Below, in pieces: positions 4,401-50,774 of a stretch of DNA of 64,000 nt; positions within the stretch are counted from its first letter, which is position 1; the number at the start of each line of letters is the position of its first letter. The notes under the pieces were generated by a model. That model was not told the origin of the DNA and did not search any database. It worked only from the letters and a program-made list of their open reading frames with translations. The translations under genes were made by a program, and so were the position numbers. This stretch comes from a virus (lineage: Duplodnaviria > Caudoviricetes): positions 64,001-128,000 of the IMG/VR virus record IMGVR_UViG_3300021399_000102; one strand, 5' to 3'.

Positions 4401-4930
4401 CCAACAAGGACATGCCATATTTGGAGAGCAGCGAGGTTCCTGAACTTCCAACTGACATCAAGCGCGATGTCAAGAGGGTGATTACGAAACTCAATGCTGA
4501 GATTCGTGGCACAAAGCAGTTCAACTTCCTTGAGTCATGTGGAGTGGAGAAGCCACAGATTGTGGTAGAGGAGTTCCTTTCTGGCTACAAGAAGGCTCAA
4601 GTGAATGAAACTCTTTCTGAGACCACCTACAAGTGGGTGTTCAAGAAGAATGACGACTTGTTCTCCCGTATGTTCTATTCCAACATGAAGGAGAAGTTGA
4701 TGCAGTATCTTGGAAGTTTCGCTCAGAAGTTCAATTTGGAATGTGGTTGCGAGGTCACGCCTACTGCCATAAAGATTGACTTCATGCGTTCAGAACTTGG
4801 CAATCCAGGATATGACCTTGACACGATGATTGATGCTGACGTTGCGACCCAGCCTGTGGAAGAGCCAATTGAGCAATCCAACGTTGCTCCAACTCTCGAC
4901 CAGGCTATGGAGATTGCAAAGAGCCTGTGA
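1442..4930 (+). CDS. 1162-aa acidic, Gly/Asp-rich protein, probable head/internal virion protein (in-frame TAG at 2843-2845)
   Basis: ORFs 1442..2845 and 2867..4930 join in frame (NRK*TSTKKEVVKES). Low-complexity spacers and many hydrophobic-X-Glu sites resemble T4-like prohead-processed proteins (function is inference). Confidence 0.65.
3175..3465 (+). repeat. Coding low-complexity repeat, GGDDAGG / DADPFAGG units
   Basis: Three DADPF(A/G)GGDDA units and many GGDDA units in the translation. Confidence 0.85.
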
Positions 4931-17030: not shown

Positions 17031-17423
17031 TTATATTTTCCATTCATCACCATTTTCCTAAAGCCAATCTGGGGATTCCTCGTCTCCAATTTCCATCCAC
17101 TTGAACTCGTTGTCGTCTTTGTCTTTTCGCCACATATATTCTTTCTTGCCATATACAACGACATCTTTCTCTTTTGGGGTTATCAATACATTATCAATCT
17201 TCCAAGTTTCTTTATCTGTGGCAACAAACCCATCGTCCATTATGCCAAGGTAGTTTATGCCACTTTGTGCTTCTGGCGTATAGCAAACCCTTTTTCCACC
17301 GTAATCAAGGTATATTTTGCCTATTCCAGAACTCACATCATGGACAAATAGCAATTGACCTTCGGTAAGCTATTCTGGCATTTTATCCTCGTTGCTGACT
17401 ACCTTGAATGTTACTTTCGCCAT
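17031..17423 (-). CDS. Hypothetical late protein (TAGs at 17370-17372 and 17058-17060)
   Basis: MAKVTFKVVSNEDKMPE*LTEGQLLFV...DWL*ENGDEWKI-TAA; N-terminus loosely resembles that of the 14567-16117 protein. Confidence 0.65.
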
Positions 17424-32829: not shown

Positions 32830-33441
32830 TTATACATTGAACTGCTTTTTGATGAAGTCATATTCAATTGGAGCGCAATTCCAACGTTCAACGCAAGCGC
32901 ATAGCCGATTTGGGTCTATTGTGTTGAAGTATTTACTGCCGTGTACATGCCCATAGATGTTGATAAGTCCATCTGGAATCACGTCCAATGGCTCGTGCGA
33001 GAACACAAACTTTCCATCCAACAGGAAAGGATGCTTGAATGTCCTGTTGAACCCAAGCTCCTTCCAATCGTAGTGTTGCTCTCTATCGTGGTTTCCCATC
33101 AAGAGCCATATTCGTCCATTTAGCCTTGACACGATGTCCTTGATTCTGTTCTTGTTGCCAAAGGAGAAGTCACCCAGATGGAGAACCAAGTCTCTCTTTG
33201 AGACTTTTTCGTTCCACCTCTGAATCATGGCTTCGTTCATTTCATCCCTGTCCTTGAATGGTCTGTTGGCAGCCTCGTAGATTAAAATCCGACGATGGCA
33301 GAAATGCGTGTCAGATACGATCCACAACTTTGCGTCAGATGGCTTGAGATATTCAGACTTGCCCAAGTTGTTCTCTGCGCAAGGGACGTATATTGAACGC
33401 ATCCCTGTGTTGTTTGGCTCTCTGTTTGTTGCTTCGTCCAT
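32830..33441 (-). CDS. Calcineurin-like metallophosphoesterase (no TAG)
   Basis: SDTHF, LGDFS, GNHD, SHEP, YGHVH. Confidence 0.9.
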   Translation of the reverse strand: MDEATNREPNNTGMRSIYVPCAENNLGKSEYLKPSDAKLWIVSDTHFCHRRILIYEAANRPFKDRDEMNEAMIQRWNEKVSKRDLVLHLGDFSFGNKNRIKDIVSRLNGRIWLLMGNHDREQHYDWKELGFNRTFKHPFLLDGKFVFSHEPLDVIPDGLINIYGHVHGSKYFNTIDPNRLCACVERWNCAPIEYDFIKKQFNV

Positions 33442-35276
33442 TATGGTGTAACCTTCTCAAACGTTGGCTTCTGACCGGCTTGGCAACTCGTAAGCTTGTT
33501 CTTGCCAATGTGTTGGTCGTATATCAATCCATCTTCGTGGCAGCGCAATGGCTGCTTGGCAACCCCAAGTCCTGCGCAAAGTTTGCACACGATGTCATCG
33601 GTGTTCTCGTCTCCATGAACTATGGTCAAGTCAACCTTGTCCATCAATTCAATCATCAACTTGCCCAAGGCTCTCGGGTCTATGTTGTCCATGCCATCCA
33701 CCACAATCTCGAAATATGGCTTGCTTGGCTTGACAACTTCCTCCACTGGCTTCTCTGTTGCAACTGCCACCATGTTCTTGGGTGCTTCAACTATGGTTGG
33801 TGTTGGTGTGGGAGTTGTGTCTTCTTTCCAAACAGAAACGATGTGAAGTTCCTTATTCTTTGGCAAAGGTGGTGCTTGAATGACCTTCTCTGGCTCAACC
33901 TTGATTGCTTCTGCCGTGTTGGGGCAATCAACGCCATAGATGTAGTCGGGGGCGTTTGCGTACTTCTCTTCCAACATCGACTTGGTGTCGTAGGTGTCCT
34001 CTTCTTGCGTGTTGATTACCCTCATTCCATAGTTGTTCACGCCAGGAACAGGGACAACACCCTCCTTGAGCTTCAGCTCTTGCTTGAACACAGAGTAATC
34101 CACCTCGTGATGCCACCTGTGGAACTTCCACACGACCTTCGCCACGTCTGGGTGGAGCCGAGCAATCATTTCTGACTTCTCCTTCGTTCCATTGACGTAT
34201 ATTGAGGTCGTGTTTCCACCTTTAACCTTCATCGTAGTGGACTTTCCAAACAAAGCCCAGTTTGCAAGGACAGTACACCAACCATCCTTGAGTATTCGGA
34301 GCGAAAGGTCAGTGTCCTCGTTGAACCTCGCCCTCCACCTGTAGGGCTTCCCATCCTTGCCAACAATGTCGTTTCTGTTGAGGATGCAGGAGTAGATTCG
34401 TGTGTTCATCGTAAATGGGGCATGGTATGCATCCATCGTCACGAACATCTTGTAGTTCAGTCCAAACTGGCCAATGTTCTCGTATCTGTCCACGAAGTCC
34501 TCGCAAGCAGCAAGCAATGCGCCAGTACGGCACTTCACCTTCACGTTGTGCCAGAACCAATGGAATCCCTCTGTGGCGTTGTCATCCATAATCCAATGCC
34601 ACTTCGCGCCACGCCTTACAGAATCGTCCCAAACGAAGTTTCTCGCTGGACCAGACCCCTTTGGAAACTCTGGACCAACATCGTCGCAAGTGTCGTACCT
34701 GTCCTTGTAGCTCATGTCAAGCTGAAGCAAGGTTGCGTATTGGTTCTCTACGTGTGCCTTGTAGTCGTTGTACTCAGAAGGTTCGCAAACCACGAAATGC
34801 TTGACCTCCATCTGCGTGAGGAAGCGTGAGGTGTAGCATTTCTCTGCCCTTCCCTTGGAGATTACGTAGATTGGATATCTATGCTCTGAACTTCCACCAA
34901 CGACCCTCAATTGGGAATACCAACCTGGAATCAACTTTGGATACCAAACTGAAATCGTCTTCTCAGAAATGTTCTGGTCGAACAGCTTGTTGGCAAGCTC
35001 CAAGTCGCCCTCGTTGAACTTGAAATCAACTTGAGCATATGGGGGTGCAGAATCGTGGGATTCGTACATGGGCATCTGCCACCACTGGTCTTTCCACTTT
35101 GCATCCCTCGCAGAATCGTCCTTCTTGGCTTTCTTCTTTGCAGGTTTCTTCTCAACTTTCGTCTTGGAATTGACATCGTATTCCTTCGTCAAACAGGTAA
35201 TGTCCGTCCCATTGCGCTTGTTGAAATCATCCAATGCCTCTTGGTTGGCGAATCTGCAAATAATCCTCGTATTCAT
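33441..35276 (-). CDS. DNA-modification-type GT-A glycosyltransferase (TET/JBP-associated, GREB1-like)
   Basis: YPIYVISKGRA, ARNFVWD, HWIMDDN, RIYSCIL, WRARFNEDTDLSLRIL, KGGNT. Confidence 0.75.
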   Translation of the reverse strand: MNTRIICRFANQEALDDFNKRNGTDITCLTKEYDVNSKTKVEKKPAKKKAKKDDSARDAKWKDQWWQMPMYESHDSAPPYAQVDFKFNEGDLELANKLFDQNISEKTISVWYPKLIPGWYSQLRVVGGSSEHRYPIYVISKGRAEKCYTSRFLTQMEVKHFVVCEPSEYNDYKAHVENQYATLLQLDMSYKDRYDTCDDVGPEFPKGSGPARNFVWDDSVRRGAKWHWIMDDNATEGFHWFWHNVKVKCRTGALLAACEDFVDRYENIGQFGLNYKMFVTMDAYHAPFTMNTRIYSCILNRNDIVGKDGKPYRWRARFNEDTDLSLRILKDGWCTVLANWALFGKSTTMKVKGGNTTSIYVNGTKEKSEMIARLHPDVAKVVWKFHRWHHEVDYSVFKQELKLKEGVVPVPGVNNYGMRVINTQEEDTYDTKSMLEEKYANAPDYIYGVDCPNTAEAIKVEPEKVIQAPPLPKNKELHIVSVWKEDTTPTPTPTIVEAPKNMVAVATEKPVEEVVKPSKPYFEIVVDGMDNIDPRALGKLMIELMDKVDLTIVHGDENTDDIVCKLCAGLGVAKQPLRCHEDGLIYDQHIGKNKLTSCQAGQKPTFEKVTP

Positions 35277-45157: not shown

Positions 45158-45553
45158 TTATAGTTGGAATTCCGAAACCTTGGCGTCAGTGTTGGTGGAA
45201 AGCCAATCGGCAATCAAGTGCCTATGGCAAAAGTCCCCAATCTTCTCGTAGCAAAGCATTACGGCATTGTCTCCAAGTTTCTCCAACACATTGTGAGGAT
45301 TCAATTTTGACAATACGGTTTCAAGGTATATGTTCTTGTACCATTCCATAGATTCCGGAGAACTTGGATTGTCCTTGAACTTGTCGTGCCATATTCTCCA
45401 CCAGCATCTCTTTGGGGCAAGTTCTGGCATGAACCTTGCATTGGGTGTGTCATAGAAGAACTTTGGCGCATAGCCAGAAACGCACACCAGGTTGTTCAAT
45501 CCACACTCTTGGAGTTTCTTTACTCTTGCGAAATAGGATGTGTAGATGGTCAT
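45158..45553 (-). CDS. DUF488-family protein
   Basis: IYTSYF, LAPK, LCYEK..FCHRHLIA.WL. Confidence 0.8.
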   Translation of the reverse strand: MTIYTSYFARVKKLQECGLNNLVCVSGYAPKFFYDTPNARFMPELAPKRCWWRIWHDKFKDNPSSPESMEWYKNIYLETVLSKLNPHNVLEKLGDNAVMLCYEKIGDFCHRHLIADWLSTNTDAKVSEFQL

Positions 45554-46002
45554 GCCAGCATTTCCTTGAGCAGATTGGAGCAGAGTTTCTTGTCGCAATT
45601 TGATGGCAGAGACTTCATCATCAATCCAAAGTCCTTCTTCGTCAGACTTCTGCCAAGCTCCTTCTTCTTGTTCGCAATTATTTCCTTGATGATGCCCTCA
45701 AGCATGTCGTCTGGTATCGTAGGTGGAATAAACAAGGACAGGTCAGCAAGTTCATCCTTCGCTTTCTCCTCCAAGTCGGGTCTGTTGGCTGCCTTTGCCG
45801 AGGCTATGGTGTCCTCCAATTGCTTCACTGCCCTCTTTACGCAACCTATGACAACATCCTCAGTGATTTCCTTGCCCTCGTTCACAGTCTTGTTCTTGAT
45901 GTCAGAAACGACCATGCGAAGGGTGTCCCTCGTGGATGCGTTTCCTGACTTCATCGCGTTCTTGATTGTCTCTTGGATTCTCTCGTATGTCTCGCTTGCC
46001 AT
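45550..46002 (-). CDS. Free-standing GatB/YqeY-domain protein
   Basis: IKNAMKSG..RDTLRMV.SDIKN, ANRPDL.EK..E, FGLMMK. Confidence 0.8.
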   Translation of the reverse strand: MASETYERIQETIKNAMKSGNASTRDTLRMVVSDIKNKTVNEGKEITEDVVIGCVKRAVKQLEDTIASAKAANRPDLEEKAKDELADLSLFIPPTIPDDMLEGIIKEIIANKKKELGRSLTKKDFGLMMKSLPSNCDKKLCSNLLKEMLA

Positions 46003-46485: not shown

Positions 46486-47109
46486 TCAACATGTTCCATT
46501 TCTTTTCAGAAGCAACAACGATACTCCAATCAAGAACAAAAGCGAAGATGAAGGTTCGGGGACAAAAGGTGGATTATATGTGTAGAAATCAGTTGGAGTC
46601 CATTGCCCATCAGCTGGCGGCCAAACACCACCTTCCCATATGTAATGTTCTCTTAAATAATTTATTGTTGCTGTATTGGATTCAGCTATTGTCTCATCCC
46701 ATATAAACAGATCCAATGCTTCGCTATATGATAAACTTCCAAGTTGTATTTGAAACAGTGCTTCCGAAAACATTTCTGAACTTATATTTACTGGTGATTG
46801 CGATGCCCAGTTTCCAGTGCTTATACCCCTTCCATCACCTGATTCATCAAAAGAGGAATAATCCCAATATTGACCATTGTTATAAATCGGAAGGACGGTG
46901 CTTGTTCCATCATTGAATGTCACCTTTACCCTAGCACCAACGTCATAACCACTATAACCATCTTCTTCCCACGCATAAGGCTCAATAAACGAAACCAAAC
47001 TCATACCATCAACGGTCGCCGTTTCATTTACTAGCCACCACAACATATCCCCCCATCCAGTGAATGGGAGTAGCATCAATAGCAGTCCATATGTCAGTTT
47101 CTTCAACAT
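46486..47109 (-). CDS. PEP-CTERM sorting-domain protein
   Basis: Signal peptide; C-terminal VPEPSSSLLFLIGVSLLLLKR. Confidence 0.85.
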   Translation of the reverse strand: MLKKLTYGLLLMLLPFTGWGDMLWWLVNETATVDGMSLVSFIEPYAWEEDGYSGYDVGARVKVTFNDGTSTVLPIYNNGQYWDYSSFDESGDGRGISTGNWASQSPVNISSEMFSEALFQIQLGSLSYSEALDLFIWDETIAESNTATINYLREHYIWEGGVWPPADGQWTPTDFYTYNPPFVPEPSSSLLFLIGVSLLLLKRNGTC

Positions 47110-47873: not shown

Positions 47874-48452
47874 TCACTTGTCAAATGCCCCGTAGAGCTT
47901 GAACTTCTTTGAGATAAGATGGGCTTGTTCGTCAGGAAGTGGCTTGAACCACGCCCCAACTGTGCATGTACCATCTGGATTCTCTGGCGTCAGATCGGTA
48001 AGGCACTTGTCGTTGATGTAGCCCCAATCAACCCCCTCAACAAGCCCAAGTTCCTGCACCACTGGCTCAATCTTCGTCTTCAACTGATTGAGATTCTTGC
48101 ATTCGCATATTGTCTTCGTGAAGATGTCGTTGATGTAGCCATTCCATATGTCCTTTGGGATTTCAACAGTAATGCTCACCGACTTCTTTGGAAATTGTGT
48201 CTTTACCTTGAAATATTTTTCCCCAGCCTTGAATGCTTCCTCTGCTTTCTTGCAGACTTCCGGATGCTTGTAGACAGCATACTGACCTGGACGCCACGGA
48301 TCTTCTGCCATCAAGGTGTCAAACTCGTTGTCAACGCAAGGAAACGACTTCAGCATGTTGGTGAAGTATGCTTCTGCACAGTGTCCAATCATGGCAGCAA
48401 GCTTCCCTGGCTTCAGATTCAGGTCTTTCCTGATTATGAACACTCTTCTCAT
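47874..48452 (-). CDS. Peptidyl-tRNA hydrolase, Pth2 family
   Basis: VFIIRKDLNLKPGKLAAMIGH, TKTICE, INDKCLTDL, TCTV, KFKLY. Confidence 0.75.
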   Translation of the reverse strand: MRRVFIIRKDLNLKPGKLAAMIGHCAEAYFTNMLKSFPCVDNEFDTLMAEDPWRPGQYAVYKHPEVCKKAEEAFKAGEKYFKVKTQFPKKSVSITVEIPKDIWNGYINDIFTKTICECKNLNQLKTKIEPVVQELGLVEGVDWGYINDKCLTDLTPENPDGTCTVGAWFKPLPDEQAHLISKKFKLYGAFDK

Positions 48453-49549: not shown

Positions 49550-50536
49550 TCACAAGTCGTCCTTGCCAATGCAGAGGTTGTCGTCAAATGCGCATTTACC
49601 CTCGATGAAATCCTGATATTGCTTGTGGATGAAATATATCTTCTTCTCAGGATGTTGTTCGACAACCAATCGCATCTTCTCTCTATCTGAATCTGGATAT
49701 CCACCCTTTACTTCAACATAGATGTCTCTGTCGGGGATATATAGGTCAGGAATATAGTTATGCCAATAGTCCTTGAAATACTTGATTGGAGCAGCTTTCA
49801 CCCACAATATGCCGAGCGCGTTCAATCTCAATGCCACATTCTCCTCCCAATGCCCACGCACAGAGAATTCCTTGCCCTCCAAGTTCTTTACCTTGTACCA
49901 CTTTACCTTCACATGTTCTTTATTGAGATACTGGTTCATGACTTGTTCGGCACGTTTGGCAGAGATTTTTTGGCGGGTTTCAAGGGTGTGTCTATGCTGT
50001 ACTGCGGACTTTGATATCTCTCCATTCTTGTACCTTTCAGAATATGTTCTTCCACCTTTTTTATATGCTTCATCATGCTGACTTTTTAGCGGATGTTTAT
50101 CGCAATGTGCAAGATGACCACCTAATTTTCCTGGACTTGATAACAATTCCTCACAATACGGACATCTCCACAAAGTTTCTCCATTTATTATGACTTTTTT
50201 GGCATGTTCGGCATTGTGTTCATCTTCAATATGTTTCTTTAATTCTTTTCTTGTCAATAGAACTTTACCGCACACTTTACAGGTCCAAGTGCCATACGGC
50301 GATTGCTTTGCAACTTTTCCTTCGGCTCTCAATTTGTCGAGATGTGCCTTTACCTTTGGGCTGTTGTGTTCAATCTCTTTGTTTATAGAACCAACATATG
50401 CTTCTTTACATTCCTTGGAGCAGAATCTTCCTGATCCATATGTGTGGTCATGTGGTTCTCCACAATTTTCACAAGGCTTGTCTTTGTTTGCAAGGCGTTT
50501 CTATGCCATTGCTTTACGATAGCGTTCTTTATTCAT
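49550..50536 (-). CDS. Zinc-finger PD-(D/E)XK endonuclease, homing-endonuclease-like (TAG at 50501-50503)
   Basis: CENCG..FCSKEC, two C2H2-like fingers, HTLETRQKIS (NUMOD3-like), YIPDLY..YVEVKG. Confidence 0.75.
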
Positions 50537-50608: not shown

Positions 50609-50638
50609 ATCTACACTAGGCGCGAACCTAGTGTAGAT
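50609..50638 (-). terminator. Terminator/processing hairpin downstream of the tRNA
   Basis: Perfect 12-bp stem ATCTACACTAGG-TTCGCG-CCTAGTGTAGAT followed by TTCTT. Confidence 0.75.
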
Positions 50639-50645
50639 ATAACTG

Positions 50646-50724
50646 TGGCTGATCCATCCCCTTCACCACGAGGAACCCGGCGGGTTAGGGCCGCCTGTGC
50701 TTTTAGGTATTACACCATGGATCA
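50646..50724 (-). tRNA. Amber suppressor tRNA (anticodon CUA), tRNA-Gln-like, non-canonical D and T loops
   Basis: TGATCCA-TG-GTGT-AATACCTAAAA-GCAC-A-GGCGG-CCCTAAC-CCGCC-GGGT-TCCTC-GTGGTGAA-GGGGA-TGGATCA-G-CCA: all four stems pair and CCA is encoded. Confidence 0.85.
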
Positions 50725-50774
50725 ATTGAAACTGTCTCGTTTCTCATCACATTCAATTATACGAAATCTCGGCA

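What the first reader, a model, noticed from the sequence alone, without database searches (positions are those of the whole stretch)
50646..50724. Amber suppressor tRNA with an inverted D-loop/T-loop elbow
Seen: a full cloverleaf with a perfect 7-bp acceptor stem, G discriminator, encoded CCA, perfect 5-bp anticodon stem and CUA centred in a 7-nt loop. It lacks near-universal residues: the D loop has ACC instead of GG, the T loop is GUGGUGAA instead of UUCRA, the T stem closes C-G instead of G53-C61, and position 33 is C. The D-loop CC is complementary to the T-loop GG, which looks like a compensatory swap of the elbow contact. Known: U1-A72, G2-C71, G73 and the UGGUGUAA..AGCAC D arm are tRNA-Gln-like. 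Inference: a functional, divergent suppressor that standard finders may miss. It might evade host tRNA nucleases or modification enzymes, or need a dedicated phage synthetase.
Basis: partly seen in the sequence, partly recalled or inferred. Interest (0 to 1): 0.95.

Follow-up and report, generated by a model that had tools for sequence, protein, structure and literature searches.

The report
Phage amber tRNA with rebuilt elbow
A jumbo phage that reads the stop codon UAG as glutamine carries a stop-reading tRNA whose near-universal corner contacts appear to be replaced by a short base-paired helix; the same design recurs in other recoded phages, where tRNA finders miss it.

Summary
Real, on the minus strand (50646-50724). 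It is most likely the amber suppressor tRNA-Gln of a TAG=Gln jumbo phage. Six distinct homologues (75-97% identical) keep all 144 stem and loop-loop pairs, with 9 compensated positions. In a complete 414-kb relative it is the only CUA tRNA, and no GlnRS or release factor was found. The elbow is more than a GG/CC swap: D-loop RCC can pair with T-loop GGY (ACC/GGU here, GCC/GGC elsewhere), a 3-bp Watson-Crick helix in place of G18-Psi55 and T54-A58. A second family, in crAss-like phages, shows the same design with different covarying letters. It is the only CUA tRNA in three complete, heavily recoded genomes, and default ARAGORN misses it. Inverting the 19-56 pair alone is ordinary in these phages, and C33 is private to this copy. 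Lab-selected suppressors with a D/T helix were published in 2007 (title checked only); I found no natural example in print. Expression, charging and 3D fold are untested. The scan noted this stretch before, and other amber tRNAs, but not this design on other DNA.

The parts
50646..50724 (-). Amber (CUA) suppressor tRNA gene, 79 nt, Gln-type frame, 'type C' elbow
   Evidence: Cloverleaf; 144/144 cells paired in 6 distinct homologues
50706..50708 (-). D-loop strand of the inter-loop helix, ACC (nt 17-19 of the RNA)
   Evidence: RCC in 6/6; A here, G in five homologues
50665..50667 (-). T-loop strand of the inter-loop helix, GGU (nt 58-60 of the RNA)
   Evidence: GGY in 6/6; U here, C in five homologues, compensating nt 17
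50662..50669 (-). 8-nt T loop: G54, 4-nt mini-loop, purine 58, 2-nt RA bulge (model)
   Evidence: Purine 54, purine 58 and an RA bulge in all type C and D sequences tabulated; the 54.58 pair itself is inferred
50686..50688 (-). CUA anticodon (C33 at 50689)
   Evidence: Sequence; CUA invariant, U33 in 5 of 6
50646..50649 (-). G73 discriminator and encoded CCA
   Evidence: Sequence; G73 in 5 of 6, A73 in one
50756..50761 (-). TATAAT -10-like box, 31 nt upstream; likely the tRNA's own promoter
   Evidence: Present 17-54 nt upstream of 13/13 tRNAs at this site; background about 1.5% per 60 nt. No consensus -35 box was found
50609..50638 (-). 13-bp hairpin with T tail, terminator-like
   Evidence: same hairpin behind the tRNA in G003, L040, L044, L058
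50775..55871 (-). 1698-aa gene with 6 in-frame TAG; fixed upstream neighbour of the suppressor site
   Evidence: no Pfam match
49550..50536 (-). 328-aa zinc-finger / phage endonuclease I-type nuclease with TAG at codon 12, directly downstream
   Evidence: nuclease genes of varying kind follow the tRNA in some relatives only

Best explanation
The gene makes the phage's working amber suppressor. It is transcribed from its own TATAAT promoter, matured by host enzymes, charged with glutamine by the host GlnRS (U1-A72, G2-C71, G10, CUA, G73) and reads UAG in the recoded genes. Its L-shape is held by a different corner. Three Watson-Crick pairs between D-loop nt 17-19 and T-loop nt 60-58 (A-U, C-G, C-G) replace the three canonical layers G18.Psi55 / R57 / G19-C56. 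A purine-purine 54.58 pair stands in for T54.A58, the 2-nt bulge is kept, and the outer C-G pair offers the flat face on which RNase P and the ribosomal L1 stalk stack. Shown: sequence, secondary structure, recoding to Gln, covariation, sole CUA tRNA in complete recoded genomes. Inferred: expression, charging by host GlnRS, the 3D model.
For: TAG read-through: coding-like sequence continues after TAG but not after TAA or TGA; about 35 predicted genes with TAG, up to 3613 aa. TAG lies opposite Gln codons in 9 of 20 non-TAG columns against G001 and 9 of 19 against G003. Six distinct homologues: 100% of 144 cells paired, 9 pairs with two-sided change, including 17-60 A-U/G-C. Nt 17-60 is the only all-Watson-Crick varying D x T column pair. 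Complete relative G003 is recoded and has this type as its only credible CUA tRNA. Ordinary suppressors occupy the same site in other relatives, so the types are interchangeable. Second family (type D): loop letters differ and covary (G-C vs C-G, U-A vs G-C). Ten more copies came from a scan that left the loops unspecified, and all fit; 25 pairs against 18.6 on shuffling, P 0.008. It is the only credible CUA tRNA in three complete crAss-like genomes whose ORF coverage rises from 34-43% to 75-82% when TAG is read. Core contacts U8-A14 and 15-48 are kept. Lab-selected suppressors with a D/T helix are reported active (PMID 17822715; title seen).
Against: Within type C the loop-loop covariation is one event (permutation P 0.17); the two C-G pairs never vary. 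The sequences are related, so the permutation P values are too optimistic, and the register for the 6-nt type D loops was chosen after the fact. The five GCC/GGC homologues also fit a canonical fold with G18.U55 and C19-G56. Minimum-energy folds of several homologues are not the cloverleaf, which lies 1-5 kcal/mol above. No transcript, charging or structure data exist. The window's genome is only about 48% complete.
Confidence: 0.72

Rival explanations
1. It is a working Gln suppressor, but with a canonical T-loop fold: only the 19-56 pair is inverted (R18.U55, C19-G56), with one extra bulged base. The 17-60 covariation is a coincidence.
For: U55 and purine 57 lie where the canonical U-turn has them. 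G18/C19 with U55/G56 occurs in 4 ordinary tRNAs of these phages, and A18.G55 in 18. Type C covariation is one event.
Against: It needs G54.C58 or G54.U58, seen in 0 of 96 ordinary T loops, and A18.U55 in this copy. It does not explain the invariant second C. Type D loops such as AGCAGAA with D-loop UGC, or ACAUGAA, fit antiparallel pairing at two or three positions.
Confidence: 0.15
2. The odd elbow makes it depend on a phage helper (for example the nearby YqeY protein or an unrecognised synthetase), or it carries another amino acid such as pyrrolysine.
For: YqeY and PTH2 genes lie 2-5 kb downstream and are conserved in relatives. YqeY domains bind the tRNA-Gln elbow in GatB and Deinococcus GlnRS (own knowledge). 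tRNA-Pyl also lacks GG and TPsiC (PMC1851642).
Against: YqeY is also present beside ordinary suppressors (L043, L058, L059). No GlnRS/GluRS, PheRS/PylRS-like or release-factor gene was found in complete relatives. The tRNA-Pyl secondary-structure features tested are not met. TAG aligns with Gln most often.
Confidence: 0.08
3. It is a decayed or non-decoding tRNA-like RNA (decoy), and UAG is read by something else.
For: No finder scores it as a tRNA; C33 is atypical; one relative (L045) carries a canonical suppressor right beside it.
Against: No broken pair in 144 cells despite up to 25% divergence; invariant CUA and CCA; sole CUA tRNA in four complete recoded genomes.
Confidence: 0.05

Closest known systems
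Amber suppressor tRNA-Gln of TAG-recoded (code 15) phages, e.g. crAssphage cr53_1 KNV47_gt01 (NC_055889.1); Borges et al., 10.1101/2021.08.26.457843
   Same: CUA anticodon, U1-A72, the same D stem and anticodon-arm frame, TAG=Gln genome, no phage synthetase
   Different: Those have D-loop GG, a 7-nt UUCGA T loop and G53-C61, and standard finders detect them; this one has none of these
[quoted passage not shown]
   Same: From the title: active suppressors with an inter-loop helix. From memory: three base pairs that make up for a missing T54-A58
   Different: Synthetic E. coli library clones, not natural genes; paper not held, so the register could not be compared
tRNA-Pyl (pylT)
   Same: CUA anticodon, G73, no G18G19, no TPsiC (PMC1851642)
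   Different: Pyl has a 6-bp anticodon stem, 3-nt variable loop, one base between acceptor and D stem, 5-nt D loop, G1-C72, and keeps U54.A58; none of these holds here
Phage tRNAs with single elbow swaps (C19-G56, A19-U56, A18.G55) in the same genomes
   Same: The elbow letters change in a compensated way
   Different: They keep 7-nt T loops and the canonical register

Membership tests
Phage amber suppressor tRNA-Gln (code 15) | Cloverleaf with CUA centred in a 7-nt loop and a 3' CCA | tested here: met
Phage amber suppressor tRNA-Gln (code 15) | Genome reads TAG as Gln | tested here: met
Phage amber suppressor tRNA-Gln (code 15) | Gln identity set (U1-A72, G2-C71, G10, Y34-U35, G/A73) | tested here: met
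   Sequence; acceptor and D stem match the phage's own tRNA-Gln(UUG). Pair 3-70 is A-U or U-A, not E. coli's G-C
Phage amber suppressor tRNA-Gln (code 15) | Expressed, charged with Gln, suppresses UAG | not testable with these tools
   No RNA contig covered the gene; this shows neither presence nor absence
Canonical tRNA elbow (Rfam tRNA model) | G18G19, U54-Psi55-C56-R57-A58, 7-nt T loop, G53-C61 | tested here: not met
tRNA-Pyl | 6-bp anticodon stem, 3-nt variable loop, single base 8, 5-nt D loop, G1-C72, U54.A58 | tested here: not met
   5-bp stem, 4-nt loop, two bases, 11-nt D loop, U1-A72, G54
tRNA-Pyl | PylRS encoded with it | tested here: not met
   No PF01409 match in G000, G001 or G003
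D/T double-helix suppressors (Kotlova 2007) | Complementary 3-nt stretches in D and T loops, no U54-A58 | tested here: met
   the feature list rests on the title and on memory
D/T double-helix suppressors (Kotlova 2007) | The helix actually forms, in the same register as in the selected clones | not testable with these tools
   Paper not held; no RNA structure data

The most novel reading that the evidence does not exclude
Recoded phages of at least two unrelated groups (about 420-kb jumbo phages and crAss-like phages) translate on ordinary bacterial ribosomes with a natural tRNA class whose elbow is a sequence-free Watson-Crick D/T helix. This class accounts for part of the TAG-recoded phages in which no suppressor could be found, and it may be selected because it escapes host factors that read the canonical elbow.
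Probability: 0.55. Interest if true: 0.85.

Novelty: new variant of a known kind. Interest (0 to 1): 0.72.

Why it matters
The G18/G19-TPsiC elbow is one of the most conserved features of non-mitochondrial tRNAs. A natural, apparently essential bacterial-system tRNA that replaces it by a covarying helix would turn a synthetic curiosity into an evolved solution. It would give natural variants for testing what RNase P, EF-Tu, GlnRS and the ribosome need. It also bears on a stated gap: suppressor tRNAs were found in only 40% of TAG-recoded phage genomes, and non-canonical ones were suspected (10.1101/2021.08.26.457843; also PMC12386605). Here four complete recoded genomes have such a tRNA as their only CUA tRNA, unseen by default ARAGORN, so a model built on these sequences can measure how much of the gap they fill. 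They are also candidate scaffolds for orthogonal amber suppression.

Tried and rejected
Rfam (gathering and E<=10) and ARAGORN tRNA mode: no hit. Exact anticodon-arm pattern in viral contigs: two chance matches in coding DNA. BLAST of the tRNA against named phages: only short chance matches. GTDB genome scan: one match, not a tRNA, so no sign of this design in bacterial genomes under that pattern. TGA recoding: rejected, sequence after TGA is not coding-like. GlnRS/GluRS, release factors, PheRS/PylRS-like genes: none. RNA-seq: three runs of one sample, kept as contigs; one 170-nt contig lay on the downstream nuclease gene and none on the tRNA, which is uninformative. Host: PEP-CTERM gene and Atlas leads (Verrucomicrobiota, Lentisphaerota; scores under 0.9) are hints only. 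Papers: Kotlova 2007 and Zagryadskaya 2003 are not held; four searches found no natural D/T-helix tRNA. Two papers on anti-phage tRNA nucleases do not mention the elbow, D loop or T loop, and one finds the anticodon arm decisive, so nuclease evasion through the elbow has no direct support. Whether types C and D share an origin was not resolved: model scores of D (40-58 bits) overlap those of canonical suppressors (38-50 bits).

Full report
1. Observation. The feature lies on the minus strand, 50724 to 50646. ARAGORN's tRNA mode misses it even at 70% of its threshold, Rfam gives nothing, and only the mitochondrial mode calls it. One sequence alone does not make the D/T complementarity significant: 17 of 97 ordinary tRNAs of this phage group have a complement of 3 bp or more somewhere.

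2. Setting. The window belongs to a 201.6-kb virus record, about 48% complete; complete relatives are 414 and 434 kb. Record names of relatives suggest ruminant gut (inference). TAG is read through: sequence behind TAG stays coding-like, behind TAA and TGA it does not. Reading TAG restores genes of 1162 to 3613 aa. TAG lies opposite Gln codons more often than any other residue: 9 of 20 non-TAG columns against G001, 9 of 19 against G003. About 40 further tRNAs lie in a cluster 70 kb away. This gene stands alone behind a 1698-aa gene, with a TATAAT box 31 nt upstream and a terminator-like hairpin behind.

3. The site is a suppressor slot. In relatives the same position holds one of three kinds of CUA tRNA: a canonical short one (type A), one with a long variable arm (type B), or the kind studied here (type C). 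All 13 have TATAAT upstream. One phage has A and C in tandem; another keeps a stub of A before B. Three more distant relatives have no tRNA there. In the complete genome G003, type C is the only credible CUA tRNA and TAG is recoded. No GlnRS/GluRS, release factor or PheRS/PylRS-like gene was found in G000, G001 or G003. So the host synthetase most likely charges it, as Borges et al. proposed for such phages.

4. Conservation. Six distinct type C sequences, 75-97% identical, came from synteny and from a metagenome scan that left both loops unspecified. All 144 cells of the cloverleaf plus the loop-loop helix are paired, and 9 pairs change on both sides; no shuffle or slid register comes close. 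U8-A14 and the 15-48 pair are kept. C33 is private to this copy and its identical twins; it recurs in two other amber tRNAs.

5. The elbow. D-loop RCC faces T-loop GGY: ACC/GGU here, GCC/GGC in the five others. This is the only varying D x T column pair that is always Watson-Crick, but it is one event (P 0.17). Stronger support comes from a second family, type D. It was found first in nine metagenome contigs beside dUTPase-like genes, with outer pair G-C in four and C-G in three (P 0.029). After the helix had been proposed, a last scan with unspecified loops gave ten more copies with new letters, UGC facing GCA or GC facing GC, all complementary. Over distinct type D loop pairs there are 25 Watson-Crick pairs against 18.6 on shuffling (P 0.008; related sequences, so optimistic). 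The phage of L122 is close to human-gut crAss-like phages such as cr60_1, whose matching region carries an annotated tRNA-Gln. In three complete genomes ORF coverage rises from 34-43% to 75-82% when TAG is read, type D is the only credible CUA tRNA, and default ARAGORN misses it.

6. Model. In both types the T loop reads purine 54, a mini-loop of 2-4 nt, purine 58, and a 2-nt RA bulge. I infer that the purine pair mimics T54.A58 (G54.A58 and G54.G58 were reported to do so by Zagryadskaya 2003; from memory). The mini-loop pairs with the D loop in up to three layers, the number of layers in the canonical G18.Psi55 / R57 / G19-C56 stack (PMC7912444). The outer pair would give the flat face on which RNase P and the L1 stalk stack (PMC4810234). 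A plain inversion of 19-56 is not special in these phages: all 9 ordinary tRNAs without C56 have the complementary base at 19. What sets types C and D apart is the changed register: 96 of 97 ordinary T loops have 7 nt and 89 have U54-A58 or A54-U58.

7. Why. Unknown. The types replace each other at one site, sometimes beside a free-standing nuclease gene, which fits turnover driven by homing or by host defence. Phage tRNAs are known to evade nucleases through anticodon-loop changes (PMC10264068, title), but I found nothing linking this to the elbow. Independence from T-loop modification enzymes or plain drift among equivalent folds are as likely.

8. Comparison and verdict. It works like, and by all testable features is, a code-15 phage suppressor tRNA-Gln. 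It fails the tests for a canonical elbow and for tRNA-Pyl. Its nearest structural precedent is synthetic (PMID 17822715). I found no natural example in the held literature, which lacks most subscription papers. New variant of a known kind; interest 0.72. Confidence is about 0.9 that it is the working suppressor and about 0.72 for the whole model with the 3-bp helix.

Noticed in passing
L121-L130 (e.g. L122:1911-1989:+), L063-L081; genomes G004, G005, G006: Second family (type D) of CUA tRNAs with a covarying D/T helix in crAss-like phages; sole CUA tRNA in three complete recoded genomes; missed by default ARAGORN except two copies with 8-nt T loops.
   Followed up: yes
L011:17241-17330, L043:6376-6465, L044:6814-6901, L058 about 4800-4893, L092:5168-5259: Amber tRNAs with a Gln-like acceptor end but a long variable arm (type B) in TAG-recoded relatives. 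In G001 TAG lies opposite Lys as often as Gln (8 and 8), which is unexplained.
   Followed up: partly
G000 182-195 kb (L010), G001 310-324 kb, G003 362-371 kb: Ordinary tRNAs of these phages covary at the elbow: C19-G56 (4), A19-U56 (5), A18.G55 (18), A54-U58 (9).
   Followed up: yes
window 49550-50536 (-); L040 behind 11452; L044 7365-7988: Free-standing nuclease genes of different kinds follow the suppressor in some relatives, and two carry in-frame TAG codons, so their synthesis would depend on the tRNA.
   Followed up: partly
window 45550-46002 (-) and 47874-48452 (-): YqeY and PTH2-type peptidyl-tRNA hydrolase genes downstream of the suppressor site, conserved in relatives whichever tRNA type is present.
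   Followed up: partly
window 46486-47109 (-): PEP-CTERM-tailed protein in the phage; weak hint of a Verrucomicrobiota/Lentisphaerota-type host.
   Followed up: partly
L011 about 17205-17235; L045:4985-5194: A truncated stub of a type A suppressor precedes type B in G001; types A and C stand in tandem, each with its own TATAAT, in L045.
   Followed up: no
G000 192758-192849 (-) and 190809-190896 (-): Odd cluster tRNAs: one called Tyr only at lowered threshold with an irregular arm layout, and a tRNA-Ile(GAU) with a long variable arm; long arms also occur on Thr, Asn, Arg and Pro tRNAs of the group.
   Followed up: no
window 33441-35276 (-): TET-associated glycosyltransferase (PF20691), a hint of DNA base modification in this phage.
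   Followed up: no
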